Origin: an uncultured Chloroflexia bacterium | Lineage (GTDB): Bacteria > Chloroflexota > Anaerolineae > Anaerolineales > Anaerolineaceae | Direction: 5' to 3' | Assembly: GCA_963768585.1 (NCBI GenBank) | Contig: CAVYIF010000015.1 | Location: forward strand, 86,683 to 110,682 | Length of the DNA: 24,000 bases | Shown: positions 11,251-14,517 of the stretch, piece after piece | Layout: every line of letters starts with the position of its first letter | How positions within the stretch are numbered: position 1 is the first letter of the stretch | The notes under the pieces: generated by a model | Seen by the model: the letters and a program-made list of their open reading frames with translations, nothing else | Database searches by the model: none | Told to the model about the DNA's origin: nothing | Made by a program: the position numbers and the translations under genes

Positions 11251-12384
11251 TTATGTCTTCAGCAAACGGCTCAGCCACAGCCAGAAGCGGTCGAAGCGAG
11301 TGGCAACCGCTCCGCCTTTGCCGGTCACGTAGCGGTAGGTGGTCCCATCCAATTGCAGAATGTAATAGCTGGCATGCTTGTCCGGCAGGTGCAGGATCAT
11401 CCCATTCTGACGTTCGGCCAGCTTGACCAGATCTTCCATGCGGGTCACATCGATCACCGGAGAAGCCACCTGCAAACCCTGCGTGTACACATCCATGATT
11501 ACGCCGCCGCTTTTAATGTGGATGACCGTTTCCTGGCTGTATTTGGAGACAGCAATGTAGTAAAGGCCCAACACCAGCAGCCCGACCAGCGCGACCGCCA
11601 GTCCAATGGTCGCGGCCCCGCGCAGCCCGCCGACCTTGAGATTCAACCCGAGCAGCTGGGTGGTGTTGTCCACCATCTCGGGGTTGGCGAGCGTCCCAGG
11701 CTGGGTCGTTTTTAAAGGATCGGTTTTAGAGCCAGCCCCGGGTAGATAAAAATGCAGGCTGTCGAATTTCAAATTCAGATGCGGTTCAAACGTGTCCGTG
11801 AATTCCTGCCCGGCCATGATTCCCCCGGCCGAGACCTGCGCGGCGATATCCAGGGTGCCGGCGCTGGGACGAAAACCGGTTTTCTCTGCCACATCCGCCA
11901 CCAGGGCCTGCACCTGGCACAGGTCGAGCGTCGCCAGGCTGGTGTGGGTATTGCCGTTAAAACTTTGGGCGGAGGCCAGCGGGATGGACCGGCTCCAGCC
12001 GCTCTGCTCGTCGCGCAGGGTGGCGGAAAGCTGCTGCTCGCCGCGGATATTGTCCAGCTGCTCGCCCACCAATATGTAGGTGAAACCCAGGTTGAGGGTG
12101 CAGGTCAGTTTGGTAAATACCGGCTCGCCCGAACCGGCCGCATCCCCGTCGTAGACGCCGGGAGCGCCGGCGGCTGAATAGAAGAAAAAACCGTTTTGCT
12201 GGTACTTGATCGGATCCGCGCTGCGCGTGACCGGGCGGGTGAAGGCAAAAACGGCCAGCCCGCCAAAGACCAGCGCCAGGAAGGCGAACAGGTACAGCGC
12301 CATTTCAAACATTCCGGCCGGATTGCCGGCAGGCTGCACCTTCTTACCCTTCTTTCCGGATTTTTTCGGGATCATGGTCAACAT
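11251..12384 (-). CDS. bitopic membrane protein of the SipW locus (DUF5305-like by context; tentative)
   Basis: ATG 12384 has GGAGG 7 nt upstream. It opens with a basic N-tail (MLTMIPKKSGKKGKK), then a TM helix, a ~230-aa extracytoplasmic region, a second TM helix (GAATIGLAVALVGLLVLGLYYIAV) and a ~90-aa C-terminal domain. The family name is from memory and was not verified. Confidence 0.55.
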   Translation of the reverse strand: MLTMIPKKSGKKGKKVQPAGNPAGMFEMALYLFAFLALVFGGLAVFAFTRPVTRSADPIKYQQNGFFFYSAAGAPGVYDGDAAGSGEPVFTKLTCTLNLGFTYILVGEQLDNIRGEQQLSATLRDEQSGWSRSIPLASAQSFNGNTHTSLATLDLCQVQALVADVAEKTGFRPSAGTLDIAAQVSAGGIMAGQEFTDTFEPHLNLKFDSLHFYLPGAGSKTDPLKTTQPGTLANPEMVDNTTQLLGLNLKVGGLRGAATIGLAVALVGLLVLGLYYIAVSKYSQETVIHIKSGGVIMDVYTQGLQVASPVIDVTRMEDLVKLAERQNGMILHLPDKHASYYILQLDGTTYRYVTGKGGAVATRFDRFWLWLSRLLKT

Positions 12385-12829
12385 AAAAAAGCCTCCCAGC
12401 AAACCGGCTGATCAACGCCATATTCAGCGGCGACCGCACCCATTCCACAACCTTGCCCACCTGCGCCAGGTGGAGCCACAATTTACCGACGATTTCCGCC
12501 TGCGTGGGCCGGTAAGCATCGATCCAGGAATTGTTGTCGCCCTTGAGCACAAAATGATCTCCCTCCATACCGATAATGCGGTGGATCACGTTGGCATTCA
12601 TTTGGGCATCGCCGTAGGCCACAATATCGCCCACCTGGTAGTCCGCTGCCTGGCGCATCACCGCCAGATCGCCTGTGTGAAAGCCGGGTTCCATGCTGAT
12701 GCCGTTGACCATCACGTAGGAGACCTGCCCGCCCAGTTTGAGCGGGGCAAAGGCCAGCCAGATGGCAGCCAGGCCAATGATCAGCAGGATGTTCGCGACC
12801 GCAGCCGGCAAACGCCAGGATTTTTTCAT
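12344..12829 (-). CDS. sipW: signal peptidase I, archaeal/ER (SipW) type
   Basis: N-terminal TM helix, then VNGISMEPGFHTGD (catalytic Ser), NVIHRI (His) and KGDNNSWID. Start placed at ATG 12829 (MKKSWRL...). Confidence 0.85.
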   Translation of the reverse strand: MKKSWRLPAAVANILLIIGLAAIWLAFAPLKLGGQVSYVMVNGISMEPGFHTGDLAVMRQAADYQVGDIVAYGDAQMNANVIHRIIGMEGDHFVLKGDNNSWIDAYRPTQAEIVGKLWLHLAQVGKVVEWVRSPLNMALISRFAGRLFYVDHDPEKIRKEG

Positions 12830-12892
12830 AATGTTATTGTATATCCATGTGGGCGGGTTGGGCAGTCCCGACCGGCGAAACAAAGTTTTGAG

Positions 12893-12933
12893 ATTAAAGA
12901 AAAGGCCTGGCTGGGCCAGGCCTTTTCTTTAAT
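12893..12933 (-). terminator. intrinsic terminator/attenuator between the secreted-protein gene and sipW
   Basis: attaaagaaaaggcctggc-tgg-gccaggccttttctttaat is a perfect ~19-bp palindrome whose arms contain U-runs. It starts ~30 nt after the frame-corrected stop at 12965. Confidence 0.6.
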
Positions 12934-12953
12934 CTGCTAATAGATCTTGTTAC

Positions 12954-13364
12954 TCAGCCCATTTTTAGGCAGGATCGAGGCTGCTGCTGACGACGACATT
13001 CAGCGCGGTCACACCAGCGAGCGGCGCGCCAGTGATAGTGCAGACCACAGTCGCGGCAGGCGCTGTACCTGGCGTGAGTGACGCAGTCTGTCCAGGCTCC
13101 GGCATCCGCAGTTTGAATTTTGACAAGCTTTGCAACCGAAGCTCCGCTAGAAGGCGAAACTGTGAAGTTGATCGTGTCAACGAGCGTGGGGTCGGTCGCA
13201 TTCAGATTGTATACGACGGCGGTGACGTCATAACCTGAAACTGTTGTGGCCGTATATCCAGCGGCGCTAGCTTCAACAGTATTCGCGGCTGCAAAGGCAT
13301 AGGCGCTGCCGGCGATGACGAGCACGGCTAAAATGACGAACAGAAATTTTACATTGCGTAACAT
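12954..13364 (-). CDS. small secreted protein with SipW-cognate-type signal peptide (paralog 1); C-terminus frameshifted as assembled
   Basis: MLRNVKFLFVILAVLVIAGSAYAFAAANTV..., followed by a Thr/Val-rich beta-like sequence. After ...AGAWTDCV (~13079) the assembled frame turns Arg/Cys-rich. The alternative frame gives LTPGTAPAATVVCTITGAPLAGVTALNVVVSSSLDPA with a stop at 12965-12967, and this matches paralog 2. Confidence 0.7.
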   Translation of the reverse strand: MLRNVKFLFVILAVLVIAGSAYAFAAANTVEASAAGYTATTVSGYDVTAVVYNLNATDPTLVDTINFTVSPSSGASVAKLVKIQTADAGAWTDCVTHARYSACRDCGLHYHWRAARWCDRAECRRQQQPRSCLKMG

Positions 13365-13437
13365 GGCTTTTATCCTTTTTTGCGTCCCCGGTTCTCGCCG
13401 GTTCCGCGCTAATGGTACAAAACTTTGAGGTTGAAAG

Positions 13438-13552
13438 CCATCCGATAAAAACTCGTTTTATCTTCGGCAGCCTGGCGGTCCTGGTCACGCTTGTGACGGT
13501 AGACCCATGGCTTTGCGTCCCCGGCTTTCGCCGGGTTTGCCTTTATCGGATG
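13438..13552 (-). promoter_or_regulatory. c-di-GMP-I (GEMM-I) riboswitch, copy A
   Basis: Minus strand reads CAUCCGAUAAAGGCAAACCCGGCGAAAGCCGGGGACGCAAAGCCAUGGGUCUACCGUCACAAGCGUGACCAGGACCGCCAGGCUGCCGAAGAUAAAACGAGUUUUUAUCGGAUGG. This contains the GEMM-I core: GGCAAACC, a GAAA-capped hairpin, GGACGCAAAGCC, then a second hairpin. Confidence 0.85.
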
Positions 13553-13586
13553 TGGTATTTCGGTTTCAATACCCCGACTAACTATT

Positions 13587-13993
13587 TTAAGGGGCAGGAT
13601 CGAGCGCTGCTGCTGGCGACGACATTCAGCGCGGTTACATCATCAAGCGGCAGGGAACCGTGACGGTGCAGGTCGCTAGTCATGGAAGAGTGCTGTACCG
13701 GCCACGAGGACGCAGTCTGTCCAGGCTCCGCCAGTCACAGTTTGAATTTTGACGATGGCTGCTACCACAGTATCCGCTAATAGGCGCAATAAGGAACGTG
13801 ATCGCATCAACGGTAGTGGGGTCGGTTGCATTCAGATCGTACACGAAGCGGTGACCGCATAACCTGGAACCACGCTGGCCTTATAACCGGCGGCACTTTC
13901 GGTAACGGTATTCGCAGCTGCGAAGGCATAGGCGCTGCCGGCGATGACGAGCACGGCCAGAATGACGAACAGAAATTTTACATTGCGTAACAT
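13587..13993 (-). pseudogene. paralog 2 of the SipW-cognate secreted protein, with at least 5 frame changes
   Basis: Its signal peptide is identical to paralog 1 (MLRNVKFLFVILAVLVIAGSAYAFAAANTV). Homologous blocks (VYDLNATDPTTVDAITF, VVAAIVKIQTVTGGAWTDCV, LATCTVTVP, DDVTALNVVASSS, LDPAP-stop) lie in alternating frames. Confidence 0.7.
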
Positions 13994-14065
13994 GGCTTTT
14001 TCCTTTTTTGCGTCCCCGGTTCTCGCCGGTTCCGCGCTAGTCAAACAAAACTTTGAGGTTGAAAG

Positions 14066-14180
14066 CCATCCGATAAAAACTCGTTTTATCTTCGGCAGCC
14101 TGGCGGTCCTGGTCACGCTGGTGACGGTAGACCCATGGCTTTGCGTCGCCGGCTTTCGCCGGGTTTGCCTTTATCGGATG
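14066..14180 (-). promoter_or_regulatory. c-di-GMP-I (GEMM-I) riboswitch, copy B
   Basis: Near-identical to copy A, including the 11-bp outer helix. It is part of a ~630-bp segmental duplication. Confidence 0.85.
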
Positions 14181-14374
14181 TTCGAGGAAATTGTCAACTC
14201 GATGCTCAAACAAAGGTTGAGCTTTATGGGTTGTCTGCGATCCTTTGCCTCCTTTATGCATCCCCCCGGTTTGCGCCGGAGCCACAACTGTGAAATTTTT
14301 TTCTTGACGATCATCCGAATAAAAAAATGATCTGGCTTCCGACACGCAAAGCCAAATCATCACGAGAAACCTCT

Positions 14375-14471
14375 TGTGATCTTCGGCGGCCTGGCGGTCA
14401 TGGTCACGTGAGTGACAGTAGATCCACGGCTTTGCGTCGCCGGCTTTCGCCGGGTTTGCCTTTATCGGATG
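14375..14471 (-). promoter_or_regulatory. c-di-GMP-I (GEMM-I) riboswitch, copy C (divergent)
   Basis: CAUCCGAUAAAGGCAAACCCGGCGAAAGCCGGCGACGCAAAGCCGUGGAUCUACUGUCACUCACGUGACCAUGACCGCCAGGCCGCCGAAGAU. It is followed by small hairpins and a U7 run (14321-14353), which may be a terminator-type expression platform. Confidence 0.8.
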
Positions 14472-14488
14472 TTTTTTATTACATAGAC

Positions 14489-14517
14489 ACTATAACACGG
14501 TATTTTTAACAATACAA
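14489..14517 (-). promoter_or_regulatory. candidate sigma70-type promoter driving the riboswitch leader
   Basis: On the minus strand: TTGTAT (14517-14512), a 17-nt spacer, then TATAGT (14494-14489), ~18 nt upstream of riboswitch C. Confidence 0.4.

What the first reader, a model, noticed from the sequence alone, without database searches (positions are those of the whole stretch)
11251..14517. c-di-GMP-controlled SipW-type secretion/fibre-like locus
Seen, in minus-strand order:
1. Promoter.
2. Riboswitches C and B.
3. Secreted-protein paralog 2.
4. Riboswitch A.
5. Secreted-protein paralog 1.
6. A strong hairpin attenuator (12893-12933).
7. An ER/archaeal-type signal peptidase (GISMEP, GDNN).
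8. A 377-aa bitopic membrane protein.
9. A terminator hairpin.

The ~135-aa products have the same signal peptide (…VIAGSAYAFAAANTV), a Thr/Val/Ser-rich beta-like body and two conserved Cys.

Established: in Bacillus, SipW processes TasA and TapA, the biofilm fibre proteins. A highly expressed major-subunit gene followed by an attenuator before the machinery genes is typical of fibre and pilus operons. GEMM-I riboswitches commonly govern adhesins, pili and matrix genes.

Inference: a second-messenger-gated extracellular fibre or matrix system, whose subunits I cannot place in a characterised family. Neither the subunit family nor the role of the bitopic membrane protein is known to me.
Basis: partly seen in the sequence, partly recalled or inferred. 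Interest (0 to 1): 0.65.

Follow-up and report, generated by a model that had tools for sequence, protein, structure and literature searches.

The report
Riboswitch-gated secreted-protein operon of Anaerolineales
This is a conserved Chloroflexota operon in which c-di-GMP riboswitches, probably acting as off-switches, control a small secreted protein from an undescribed family together with its own signal peptidase; it resembles known biofilm-fibre systems, but nothing here shows that the protein forms a fibre.

Summary
A conserved promoter, three GEMM-I aptamers, two subunit paralogs, a strong hairpin, an archaeal-type signal peptidase, a DUF5305 protein and a terminator are all present.

Four corrections apply:
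1. Both subunit ORFs are frameshifted in this window. Repairing paralog 1 gives a 132-aa protein that is 98% identical to a database protein. Paralog 2 needs about five repairs.
2. The peptidase and the "bitopic membrane protein" form one fused ORF in 75 of 75 related loci. An extra base near 12411 splits them here.
3. Rfam's best label is the "GGC" variant, but the ligand pocket is the canonical G20/A47/C92, so the ligand is c-di-GMP.
4. The expression platform has off-switch architecture. The terminator's 5' arm pairs with the aptamer's 3' strand, which implies that c-di-GMP shuts the operon down.

The order subunit, then SPase-DUF5305, recurs in about 73 of 79 Anaerolineales loci. A GEMM-I aptamer precedes 67 of 83 subunit genes.

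The subunit family has 1,284 clusters, no Pfam model and no significant structural neighbour, TasA, AbpA and Tafi included. It is a roughly 10.5-kDa acidic beta-sandwich with a highly conserved, disordered N-terminal extension. A fibre role is inferred from gene context only.

Verdict: a new variant of the SPase-dependent TasA/Tafi/AbpX type of system. Interest is moderate.

The parts
14489..14517 (-). Promoter: -35-like TTGTAT (14517-14512), a 17-nt spacer, and an extended -10 TGTTATAGT (14497-14489). It lies about 12 nt before the aptamer.
   Evidence: The same CTGTAAGG...TGCTATAGT arrangement precedes the aptamer in most of about 70 related loci. It is absent upstream of aptamers A and B. 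The generic scan did not call it.
14381..14469 (-). Riboswitch C aptamer (c-di-GMP-I clan).
   Evidence: RF03167 at 61 bits, E 2.3e-12. The own model R1 gives 119.6 bits. The pocket is G20/A47/C92.
14319..14380 (-). Expression platform of C: a small hairpin, then an intrinsic terminator (stem 14361-14326) followed by a U7 tract.
   Evidence: The terminator scan finds 14 pairs followed by TTTTTTTATT. The fold gives -18.6 kcal/mol. The unconstrained fold instead forms an antiterminator using the aptamer's P1 3' strand, at -52.8 against -49.7 kcal/mol.
14179..14318 (-). Remainder of C's leader. It keeps a typical leader hairpin and a Shine-Dalgarno-like AAAGGAGG, but no start codon or gene follows (an orphan leader).
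   Evidence: Read from the sequence and compared with typical leaders of related loci.
14090..14178 (-). Riboswitch B aptamer.
   Evidence: RF03167 at 69.1 bits, E 1.1e-14. R1 gives 118.5 bits. The pocket is canonical.
13994..14089 (-). Leader B. It has no terminator. It contains UUUUUAUCGGAU, complementary to the aptamer 5' end, and AUGGCUUU, complementary to the start-codon region AAAGCCAU.
   Evidence: The helix over the start codon co-varies in relatives (L030, L070/L077, L082, L066).
13587..13993 (-). Subunit paralog 2. It is disrupted by about five frameshifts. The repaired product of about 130 aa is 72% identical to paralog 1.
   Evidence: Three-frame translation and DNA alignment, comparison with L003, the family alignment and pairwise identities.
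13462..13550 (-). Riboswitch A aptamer.
   Evidence: RF03167 at 79.4 bits, E 1.2e-17. R1 gives 120.3 bits. The pocket is canonical.
13365..13461 (-). Leader A. It is essentially identical to leader B and has no terminator.
12965..13364 (-). Subunit paralog 1. A 1-nt insertion lies near 13077-13080. The repaired product is 132 aa: a signal peptide, the YAFAAANT motif, and a roughly 107-aa acidic beta-sandwich with two Cys.
   Evidence: The repaired protein is 98% identical over 100% of its length to P0001, and 293 homologues were found. The repair is shown. AF2 models are. pI and mass are.
12891..12935 (-). Perfect 21-bp hairpin (A-tract, GC core, U-tract) between the subunit gene and the peptidase gene. 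It is a likely partial terminator or a 3' stabiliser.
   Evidence: -34.5 kcal/mol, z -9.4. A comparable hairpin (at or below -12 kcal/mol) follows the subunit gene in 65 of 73 related loci, often with the same GGCCUGG/CCAGGCC core.
12344..12832 (-). Archaeal/ER-type signal peptidase I domain (SipW-like), with an N-terminal transmembrane segment.
   Evidence: TIGR02228 at 73.4 bits against a cut-off of 51.85, and Peptidase_S24/S26.
11251..12384 (-). DUF5305 module. It has a transmembrane segment, an extracellular domain, a second transmembrane segment and a cytoplasmic C-terminal domain. In relatives it is the C-terminal part of the peptidase protein. Here an extra base near 12411 splits the two.
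   Evidence: PF17231 at 36.3 bits against a cut-off of 29. The two are fused in 75 of 75 loci, and the repaired window ORF is 525 aa. Gene calls of 514 and 519 aa carry both Pfam domains in L001 and L002. Four transmembrane-like segments are found.
11217..11239 (-). Terminator hairpin at the end of the operon.
   Evidence: -24 kcal/mol, z -4.9.

Best explanation
The locus is one transcription unit of an Anaerolineales (Chloroflexota) bacterium. From a conserved promoter, the mRNA begins almost directly with a c-di-GMP-I aptamer (C).

Regulation (inferred from the RNA anatomy):
- When c-di-GMP is bound, the aptamer holds its own 3' strand. The downstream terminator then forms and transcription stops.
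- When c-di-GMP is low, that 3' strand pairs with the terminator's 5' arm as an antiterminator, and the operon is transcribed.
- Two further aptamers (B and A), each duplicated together with a subunit gene, have lost the terminator. At most they modulate translation.

Products:
- The subunit genes encode a pre-protein of about 132 aa. Its signal peptide is most likely removed, at the invariant YAFAA motif, by the dedicated archaeal-type signal peptidase encoded downstream.
- In this lineage that peptidase is fused to its proposed DUF5305 accessory module.
- A conserved hairpin after the subunit gene keeps subunit mRNA in excess over peptidase mRNA.
- The mature product is an acidic beta-sandwich of about 10.5 kDa, with a probable disulfide. 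Its highly conserved N-terminal extension is disordered in the monomer model.
- By analogy with TasA, Tafi and AbpX systems it most likely assembles outside the cell into a polymer or coat, possibly by donating that extension to a neighbouring subunit.

Status of each step:
- Shown: the anatomy, family memberships, conservation of gene order, the riboswitch pocket and the terminator.
- Inferred: the direction of switching, the cleavage site and its dependence on this peptidase, and polymerisation.

The frameshifts in this window are most likely assembly errors.
For: - Riboswitches: three GEMM-I clan hits. The ligand-contacting positions G20/A47/C92 (named in PMC4744006) are canonical in 70 of 72 aptamers, including all three here.
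- Conservation: 112 relatives were found in GTDB representative genomes, nearly all Anaerolineales. The order subunit, SPase, DUF5305 holds in about 73 of 79 loci. An aptamer lies within 400 nt upstream of 67 of 83 subunit genes. All 14 of the first 14 loci scanned gave Rfam hits.
- Off-switch logic: with the aptamer folded separately, the terminator forms in nearly all leaders. In the unconstrained fold, the terminator's 5' arm pairs with aptamer nucleotides in about half of them. The 5' arm has at least 7 consecutive complementary bases to the aptamer's 3' part in 36 of 53 loci, against 1 of 53 for the 3' arm. In L070 and L077 the aptamer strand GCCAAGC co-varies with the terminator arms.
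- Peptidase and DUF5305. Literature proposes DUF5305 as an SPase I accessory and records the Anaerolinea fusion.
- Subunit: 293 close homologues and 1,284 clusters. AF2 gives a core pLDDT of 93.4 and an N-terminal extension with pLDDT below 50. The N-terminal motif and extension are the most conserved segment. The mature pI is about 4.05. Across species the mature part is more conserved than the peptidase, 77% against 66%.
- Attenuator hairpin: conserved.
- Assembly errors: the same-species locus L003 carries different frameshifts. The window also splits a methyltransferase-CdhD gene that is intact in L003. An intact 132-aa protein, 98% identical to repaired paralog 1, exists in other datasets.
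Against: - The subunit has no sequence or fold similarity to any known fibre subunit. Foldseek's best E values are 0.11 and 0.14, and neither of the two top-50 lists contains TasA, AbpA, Tafi or a chaperone-usher pilin.
- NCBIfam returned no hit of any kind for the subunits, so the SipW-cognate signal models did not match.
- No tip, anchor or chaperone gene is conserved in the locus.
- The off-switch reading rests on thermodynamic folding and complementarity. In about half the leaders the unconstrained minimum-energy fold still contains the terminator. The per-locus shuffle control is weak, with p about 0.02-0.7. Loci are phylogenetically related, so the counts are not independent.
- Riboswitches A and B have no recognisable switch.
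- Paralog 2 carries far more indels (about 1.5%) than the flanks (about 0.2%), so it may be a true pseudogene.
Confidence: 0.6

Rival explanations
1. The parts are the same, but the riboswitches are on-switches. In this reading c-di-GMP induces a biofilm matrix fibre.
For: GEMM-I and GEMM-II riboswitches in front of adhesin and pilus genes are often on-switches (own knowledge; the tandem riboswitch review is). In about half of the leaders the unconstrained fold already contains the terminator, as would be expected for the apo state of an on-switch.
Against: The terminator forms completely from platform nucleotides alone, so a folded aptamer does not obstruct it. The aptamer's 3' strand matches the terminator's 3' arm rather than complementing it: on-type complementarity of at least 7 bases occurs in 1 of 53 loci, against 36 of 53 for off-type. 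No element was found that a bound aptamer would free to act as an antiterminator.
Confidence: 0.25
2. The small protein is secreted but does not polymerise. It could be a monomeric or cell-surface-bound beta-sandwich, such as a lectin-like binder or a coat or spacer protein. The dedicated peptidase would then only ensure its maturation.
For: No structural neighbour among fibre subunits was found; the best matches are generic Ig/FnIII sandwiches. The locus has only two genes, with no anchor or tip. The conserved N-terminus could reflect peptidase recognition alone.
Against: Every characterised system that pairs a TIGR02228-type peptidase, with or without DUF5305, with adjacent small secreted proteins makes donor-strand filaments: TasA, Tafi, AbpA and AbpX. 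Conservation extends about 20 residues past the cleavage motif into a segment that is disordered in the monomer model, as reported for AbpX. The attenuator hairpin suggests very high subunit output.
Confidence: 0.3
3. The locus is genuinely decaying in this organism. Both subunit genes and the peptidase-DUF5305 fusion carry real frameshifts, so nothing functional is made.
For: Seven frame disruptions fall within about 2.9 kb of coding sequence. Paralog 2 has an indel density about seven times that of the flanks.
Against: The same-species assembly L003 has an intact paralog 2 and an unbroken fusion junction, but has its own, different frameshifts in paralog 1, the peptidase and DUF5305. The window also has a frameshift in an unrelated gene. 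An intact protein 98% identical to repaired paralog 1 is on record. The aptamers, leaders and hairpins are nearly identical between the two assemblies.
Confidence: 0.15
4. The aptamers belong to the c-di-GMP-I-GGC variant class and sense a ligand other than c-di-GMP.
For: Rfam's best-scoring model for all three is RF03167, at 61-79 bits against a gathering score of 59.
Against: The diagnostic position 47 is G in the RF03167 consensus but A in all three window aptamers and in 72 of 72 full-length aptamers in related loci. Orthologous aptamers in most related loci score best with RF01051. The label therefore reflects overall sequence relatedness rather than the binding pocket.
Confidence: 0.05

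Closest known systems
Haloarchaeal Tat-fimbriae (Tafi): TafA/TafE pilins with signal peptidase TafD and the DUF5305 protein TafG
   Same: Small secreted subunit genes lie next to a dedicated S24/S26-type signal peptidase and a DUF5305 protein. The peptidase was shown to be needed for subunit processing (PMC11821415; PMC12337348). SPase-DUF5305 fusions in bacteria are noted there.
   Different: Tafi subunits are larger, exported through Tat, and members of the TasA superfamily. Tafi loci also have tip, adhesin and regulator genes. Here the subunit is about 107 aa when mature, has a Sec-type signal and shows no detectable relation to TafA or TafE. The locus has two genes, and control is by riboswitch.
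AbpX / AbpA archaeal bundling pili (TasA superfamily) with a dedicated TIGR02228 signal peptidase
   Same: P. abyssi has a minimal locus of subunit plus peptidase. The subunit is acidic (pI about 4), has two Cys predicted to form a disulfide, and has an N-terminal extension that is unstructured in the monomer model. DUF5305 is proposed as the SPase accessory, and the fusion in Anaerolinea thermophila is noted (bioRxiv 10.64898/2026.01.04.697558).
   Different: Mature AbpX is 163 aa, a jelly roll with Ca2+ sites. Its bacterial loci carry a 10-TM peptidase and SLH or LPXTG anchors. The protein here is a smaller six- or seven-strand sandwich, and no AbpX or TasA entry appears in either top-50 list of Foldseek matches.
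Bacillus subtilis tapA-sipW-tasA operon
   Same: An ER/archaeal-type signal peptidase is encoded together with its secreted substrate. The substrate's mature N-terminus is the polymerisation determinant (own knowledge of TasA fibres).
   Different: The SipW equivalog model is not met: NF046067 scores 33.7 bits against a cut-off of 190. No Peptidase_M73 or TasA domain and no SipW-cognate signal model match was found. Gene order and regulation also differ: protein repressors in Bacillus, a riboswitch here.
c-di-GMP-I (GEMM-I) riboswitches, including tandem arrangements and off-switches such as Cd1 of Clostridioides difficile
   Same: The aptamer fold, the pocket nucleotides and the GAAA tetraloop match. 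Doublet and triplet arrangements are well known: 347 doublets and 12 triplets are reported in PMC9481103. Terminator-type off logic is known for Cd1 upstream of flagellar genes (own knowledge).
   Different: Here the three aptamers are not one stacked leader. One gates the operon, and two were duplicated together with subunit genes and lost their terminators. The regulated gene family has not been described.

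Membership tests
c-di-GMP-I riboswitch (Rfam clan CL00126, RF01051) | A covariance-model match above the gathering score. 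| tested here: met
   All three aptamers reach a clan member's gathering score, at 61, 69.1 and 79.4 bits against 59. Orthologous aptamers in related loci score 57-85 bits on RF01051 against 35.
c-di-GMP-I riboswitch (Rfam clan CL00126, RF01051) | The ligand-contacting nucleotides G20, A47 and C92 (Vc2 numbering). | tested here: met
   All three positions are canonical in the window aptamers and in 70 of 72 related aptamers. The positions are named in PMC4744006 and PMC11218506. They were mapped through the model's structure line.
c-di-GMP-I riboswitch (Rfam clan CL00126, RF01051) | An expression platform coupled to the aptamer. | tested here: inconclusive
   Riboswitch C has a terminator whose 5' arm competes for the aptamer's 3' strand. 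A and B have no terminator, only candidate pairings over the Shine-Dalgarno and start-codon region.
c-di-GMP-I riboswitch (Rfam clan CL00126, RF01051) | Binding of c-di-GMP. | not testable with these tools
   This needs in-line probing, ITC or reporter assays.
c-di-GMP-I-GGC variant (RF03167) | A covariance-model match above the gathering score. | tested here: met
   61-79.4 bits against 59.
c-di-GMP-I-GGC variant (RF03167) | G at pocket position 47. The name gives positions 20/47/92 as G/G/C (own knowledge of the naming; the model consensus reads GACGCGAA). | tested here: not met
   The window aptamers read GACGCAAA, so position 47 is A.
Archaeal/ER-type signal peptidase I (NCBIfam TIGR02228) | An HMM score above the curated cut-off. 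| tested here: met
   73.4 bits against 51.85. Peptidase_S24 and S26 also pass.
Bacillus SipW (NCBIfam NF046067 equivalog) | An HMM score above the curated cut-off. | tested here: not met
   33.7 bits against 190. The protein works like SipW but is not an ortholog by this model.
DUF5305 (Pfam PF17231), proposed SPase I accessory | An HMM score above the gathering threshold. | tested here: met
   36.3 bits against 29, covering profile positions 1-217 of 217.
DUF5305 (Pfam PF17231), proposed SPase I accessory | Two transmembrane helices flanking an extracellular domain, plus a cytoplasmic C-terminal domain, in association with an SPase I. | tested here: met
   Hydropathy segments fall at 170-201 and 399-430 of the repaired fusion. 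The module is fused to the peptidase in 75 of 75 relatives. The architecture is described in the AbpX preprint.
TasA superfamily (TasA/camelysin Peptidase_M73, AbpA, AbpX, TafA/E, DUF1102) | Sequence-profile membership. | tested here: not met
   No Pfam or NCBIfam hit was found for the two window subunits, even at E up to 10. None of 80 diverse family members hit a relevant Pfam family. Profile searches of PDB sequences found nothing relevant.
TasA superfamily (TasA/camelysin Peptidase_M73, AbpA, AbpX, TafA/E, DUF1102) | A jelly-roll fold similar to solved subunits. | tested here: not met
   Foldseek against the PDB, using a model with pLDDT 93.4, gave a best E of 0.14 and TM at most 0.51. The hits are generic FnIII/Ig or ATPase N-terminal barrels. 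The full-length model gave the same result.
TasA superfamily (TasA/camelysin Peptidase_M73, AbpA, AbpX, TafA/E, DUF1102) | A gene adjacent to a dedicated TIGR02228-type signal peptidase. | tested here: met
TasA superfamily (TasA/camelysin Peptidase_M73, AbpA, AbpX, TafA/E, DUF1102) | Polymerisation by N-terminal donor-strand complementation. | not testable with these tools
   Only circumstantial evidence exists: a conserved N-terminal extension that is disordered in the monomer model.
SipW-cognate signal peptide (NCBIfam TIGR04088 and related exported-by-SipW models) | An HMM match to the signal region. | tested here: not met
   No NCBIfam hit at E up to 1 for either subunit. GSAYAF loosely resembles the GTWAAF of TasA, but that comparison is from memory only.

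The most novel reading that the evidence does not exclude
The roughly 107-aa protein may be the subunit of a previously unseen extracellular filament or coat of filamentous Chloroflexota. It would be the smallest known subunit that depends on a dedicated SPase-DUF5305, with a fold unrelated to TasA, Tafi or Abp. Its production would be switched off, not on, by c-di-GMP. That would make it a surface structure of the low-c-di-GMP (dispersal or motile) state, and a bacterial counterpart of archaeal bundling pili that arose independently.
Probability: 0.25. Interest if true: 0.75.

Novelty: new variant of a known kind. Interest (0 to 1): 0.5.

Why it matters
Anaerolineales are abundant filamentous bacteria in sludge, sediments and groundwater, and their surface biology is almost unknown.

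This operon links three things, and each link can be tested directly:
- a second messenger whose sensor is readable from sequence;
- a dedicated signal peptidase fused to DUF5305, an arrangement that supports the proposed accessory role of DUF5305;
- a large protein family (1,284 clusters) that has no annotation.

If the off-switch reading holds, the operon would also be an example of a c-di-GMP-repressed secreted structural protein outside the flagellar paradigm.

On the practical side, the subunit family deserves a family model. Annotators should also know two things. Rfam's GGC label is misleading for these aptamers. JGI's name "archaellin" for some family members is supported by no Pfam or NCBIfam hit here.

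Tried and rejected
- Pfam, NCBIfam and PHROGs scans of the as-read and repaired subunits found nothing, at E up to 10 for Pfam and up to 1 for NCBIfam and PHROGs.
- A Pfam scan of 80 diverse family members gave only one-off chance hits and two chimeric ORFs.
- Profile searches of PDB sequences with two alignments gave only chance hits, with E of 0.075 or higher.
- Foldseek with the full-length model (pLDDT 79.5) and with a core-only model (pLDDT 93.4) gave no match at E <= 0.001.
- The reading that the aptamers are GGC variants with another ligand was rejected on pocket position 47.
- General hypervariability of the subunit was rejected. The two same-species assemblies differ by 16-19% in the subunit genes against 2% or less in the flanks. 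Across species, however, the mature subunit is more conserved than the peptidase. The local divergence is therefore an allele, paralog or assembly effect.
- Tandem Repeats Finder does not report the 628-bp duplicated unit of aptamer plus gene, because its longest period is 500.
- The original paper on the GGC variant (PNAS 2017) and the GEMM-Ib paper could not be retrieved.
- A multimer (donor-strand) prediction could not be run with the tools available.
- The crude terminator detector for the spacer between the subunit and the peptidase was replaced by a best-hairpin search.
- No paper linking Anaerolineae, c-di-GMP and riboswitches was found.

Full report
**1. What is in the sequence**

All features lie on the minus strand.

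Rfam finds three aptamers of the c-di-GMP-I clan, at 14469-14381 (C), 14178-14090 (B) and 13550-13462 (A). They score 61-79 bits, with E from 1e-12 to 1e-17.

Upstream of C, and only there, lies a promoter. Its -35 is TTGTAT at 14517-14512 and its extended -10 is TGTTATAGT at 14497-14489. It matches a motif (CTGTAAGG ... TGCTATAGT, about 12 nt before the aptamer) that recurs in most of about 70 related loci. The generic sigma-70 scan missed it.

C is followed by a terminator: a 14-bp stem at 14361-14326, then U7. A and B are each followed by an almost identical 97-nt leader without a terminator, and then by a subunit gene. The unit of aptamer, leader and gene is duplicated with a period of 628 bp.

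After paralog 1 comes a perfect 21-bp hairpin at 12935-12891, with -34.5 kcal/mol and z -9.4. Next is a signal-peptidase ORF (12832-12344) that scores 73.4 bits against TIGR02228, cut-off 51.85. It is followed by a DUF5305 ORF (12384-11251) that scores 36.3 bits against PF17231, cut-off 29. A terminator hairpin at 11239-11217 ends the unit. The next gene is an AlaX-like editing protein and is unrelated.

**2. Corrections to the observation**

*Frameshifts in the subunit genes.* The two paralogs do not align in one frame.
- The 136-aa ORF of paralog 1 leaves the family frame after about residue 95.
- Deleting one base near 13077-13080 gives a 132-aa protein ending ...VTALNVVVSSSLDPA. This protein is 98% identical over its full length to a database protein (P0001). 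It has 293 homologues of 131-133 aa.
- Paralog 2 (13993-13587) needs about five frame changes.

*The peptidase and DUF5305 are one protein.* The two ORFs overlap by 41 nt. In 75 of 75 related loci they form one uninterrupted ORF. Independent gene calls of 514 and 519 aa carry both Pfam domains. Removing one base near 12411 restores a 525-aa protein with four hydrophobic segments.

*Why the frameshifts are probably errors.* L003 is a same-species locus from another assembly, 98% identical downstream.
- It has an intact upstream paralog and an unbroken fusion junction.
- It has its own, different frameshifts in the other paralog, the peptidase and DUF5305.
- The window also splits a methyltransferase-CdhD gene that is one ORF in L003.

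Most of these frameshifts therefore look like assembly errors. However, paralog 2 has an indel density of about 1.5% against about 0.2% in the flanks, so a true pseudogene cannot be excluded.

**3. The riboswitch class**

Rfam's best model is RF03167, the "c-di-GMP-I-GGC" variant. I mapped the model's structure line onto the sequences:
- The unpaired G just before the G-C pair is G20.
- The base after that pair's C is position 47.
- The unpaired C before the P1 3' strand is C92.

These are the three ligand-contacting positions of Vc2 (PMC4744006 and PMC11218506).

The RF03167 consensus has G at position 47 (GACGCGAA). All three window aptamers have A (GACGCAAA). In an alignment of 73 matches from the window and related loci, 72 are full-length aptamers. 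Of these, 70 are G20/A47/C92, none has G47, and two (L001, L043) have A20. Orthologous aptamers in most related loci score best with the canonical RF01051. The GGC label is therefore an effect of overall sequence relatedness. The pocket is that of a c-di-GMP sensor.

**4. Conservation of the system**

A scan of one genome per GTDB species found 112 relatives of the subunit. The 79 distinct loci kept are almost all Anaerolineales or Chloroflexota MAGs, including Candidatus Villigracilis. Two come from Actinomycetota MAGs.
- The order subunit, peptidase, DUF5305 on one strand holds in about 73 of 79 loci. The exceptions are mostly truncated contigs.
- A covariance model built from 18 aptamers finds an aptamer within 400 nt upstream of 67 of 83 subunit genes.
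- Thirteen loci lack any GEMM-I hit by Rfam. Most carry more divergent subunits, and two are the Actinomycetota loci.
- A strong hairpin follows the subunit gene in 65 of 73 loci, often AAGAUAAGGCCUGG...CCAGGCCUUAUCUU, like the one here.

**5. Direction of switching (inference)**

The typical leader runs: aptamer; a small hairpin (CACAAA...UUUGUG); the terminator GGCCUGGCUU...AAGCCAGGC followed by a U-run; CGGAUGGCU; then AAGGAGAAAAGCCAUG. Four observations bear on direction:
- The terminator's 3' arm repeats the aptamer's own P3/P1 3' strand (GCCAGGC). The terminator's 5' arm can therefore pair with either.
- When aptamer and platform are folded separately, as a proxy for the ligand-bound state, the terminator forms in nearly all leaders. 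In the unconstrained fold the 5' arm pairs with aptamer nucleotides in about half of them. For riboswitch C of the window the energies are -52.8 (antiterminated) against -49.7 kcal/mol.
- The 5' arm has at least 7 consecutive complementary bases to the aptamer's 3' part in 36 of 53 loci. The 3' arm does so in 1 of 53.
- In L070 and L077 the aptamer strand and both terminator arms change together, from GCCAAGC/GCUUGGC.

This is the architecture of an off-switch: bound c-di-GMP leads to the terminator. I rate it at about 0.6. The per-locus controls are weak and the loci are related, so the counts are not independent.

Riboswitches A and B have lost the GC stem of the terminator. They keep two pairings: UUUUUAUCGGAU with the aptamer's 5' end, and AUGGCUUU with the start-codon region. 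The second pairing co-varies in relatives. Whether A and B switch anything is open.

**6. The subunit**

- *Family size.* The family is large: 1,284 clusters at 50% identity with E <= 1e-3, nearly all 120-140 aa.
- *No family model.* There is no Pfam, NCBIfam or PHROGs model for the window proteins or for 80 diverse members. No relative of solved structure was found by sequence.
- *Structure.* AlphaFold2 gives a signal helix (residues 2-27), a low-confidence segment (22-34), and a six- or seven-strand beta-sandwich. A core-only model reaches pLDDT 93.4 and pTM 0.82.
- *No structural neighbour.* Foldseek against the PDB finds nothing at E <= 0.001. The best hits, at E 0.11-0.14 and TM at most 0.51, are generic FnIII/Ig sandwiches.
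- *Conservation.* The most conserved stretch is Y22-x-F-A-A-x-N-T, followed by the next 20 or so residues.
- *Mature protein.* It is about 107 aa and 10.5 kDa, with pI about 4.05 and two nearly invariant Cys.
- *Selection.* Across species the mature part is more conserved than the peptidase, 77% against 66%. This argues for strong structural constraint.

JGI's name "archaellin" for a few members finds no support from any Pfam or NCBIfam hit, even at lenient E-value limits.

**7. Comparison with what is known**

Literature from 2023-2026 describes Tafi (TafA/E, peptidase TafD, DUF5305 protein TafG), AbpA and AbpX. These are donor-strand filaments of the TasA superfamily, each encoded next to a dedicated TIGR02228-type peptidase. 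DUF5305 is proposed as an accessory of that peptidase, and its fusion to the peptidase in Anaerolinea thermophila is noted.

The present locus works like these systems in gene logic. It shares features with AbpX: an acidic subunit, two Cys, an N-terminal extension that is unstructured in the monomer model, and a minimal locus.

Membership of the TasA superfamily, however, was tested and not met, by sequence and by fold. The Bacillus SipW equivalog model is also not met, at 33.7 bits against 190.

Tandem c-di-GMP-I riboswitches are common.

I found no paper on this subunit family, or on c-di-GMP riboswitches in Anaerolineae.

**8. Verdict**

The best explanation is a c-di-GMP-gated, probably c-di-GMP-repressed, operon. 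It makes an abundant small secreted beta-sandwich of a new family, matured by a dedicated fused SPase-DUF5305. The protein plausibly forms an extracellular polymer.

It is a new variant of a known kind of system. Interest is moderate (0.5).

Noticed in passing
window 7090-8716 (+): A methyltransferase ORF (7090-8103) and a CdhD-like ORF (7652-8716) overlap in two frames. In the same-species locus L003, one 541-aa gene carries both domain sets. The window therefore seems to carry indel errors outside the locus as well.
   Followed up: partly
L001 5818-5917 and L043 2667-2766: These two aptamers upstream of subunit homologues have A instead of G at pocket position 20, the signature associated with 3'3'-cGAMP-sensing GEMM-Ib. 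Their leaders also lack a terminator.
   Followed up: partly
spacers between the subunit and peptidase genes of L041, L044, L045, L048-L050, L052, L054, L055, L061, L062, L069, L072, L077, L079, L082: A more distant clade replaces the GGCCUGG/CCAGGCC hairpin with a different conserved motif...CCCCGAUUUCGAAGGUUGGCGGG..., embedded in a long stem. It may be a separate structured RNA element.
   Followed up: no
window 14179-14318 (-): The leader of riboswitch C keeps the usual downstream hairpin and a Shine-Dalgarno-like AAAGGAGG, but no start codon or gene follows before aptamer B begins. It looks like the orphaned leader of a lost or displaced gene copy.
   Followed up: partly
window 12965-13993 compared with L003 6001-7000: The two same-species assemblies are 2% or less divergent in the aptamers, leaders and DUF5305, but 16-19% divergent in both subunit genes (75-80% protein identity). 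Across species the subunit is well conserved. This suggests allele or paralog exchange, or a mixed-strain consensus, at this spot.
   Followed up: partly
L001 8101-8496: A further 131-aa gene, with a weak HemolysinCabind hit, directly follows the fused SPase-DUF5305 gene in this locus. The window has no counterpart.
   Followed up: no
L063 and L081: Subunit-like genes followed by the signal peptidase also occur in two Actinomycetota MAGs (Thermoleophilia and Acidimicrobiaceae). L081 also has DUF5305. Neither has a GEMM-I aptamer.
   Followed up: no
L006 7466-7767: A T-box leader lies just downstream of the fused SPase-DUF5305 gene in this related locus. It is probably unrelated to the operon.
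   Followed up: no
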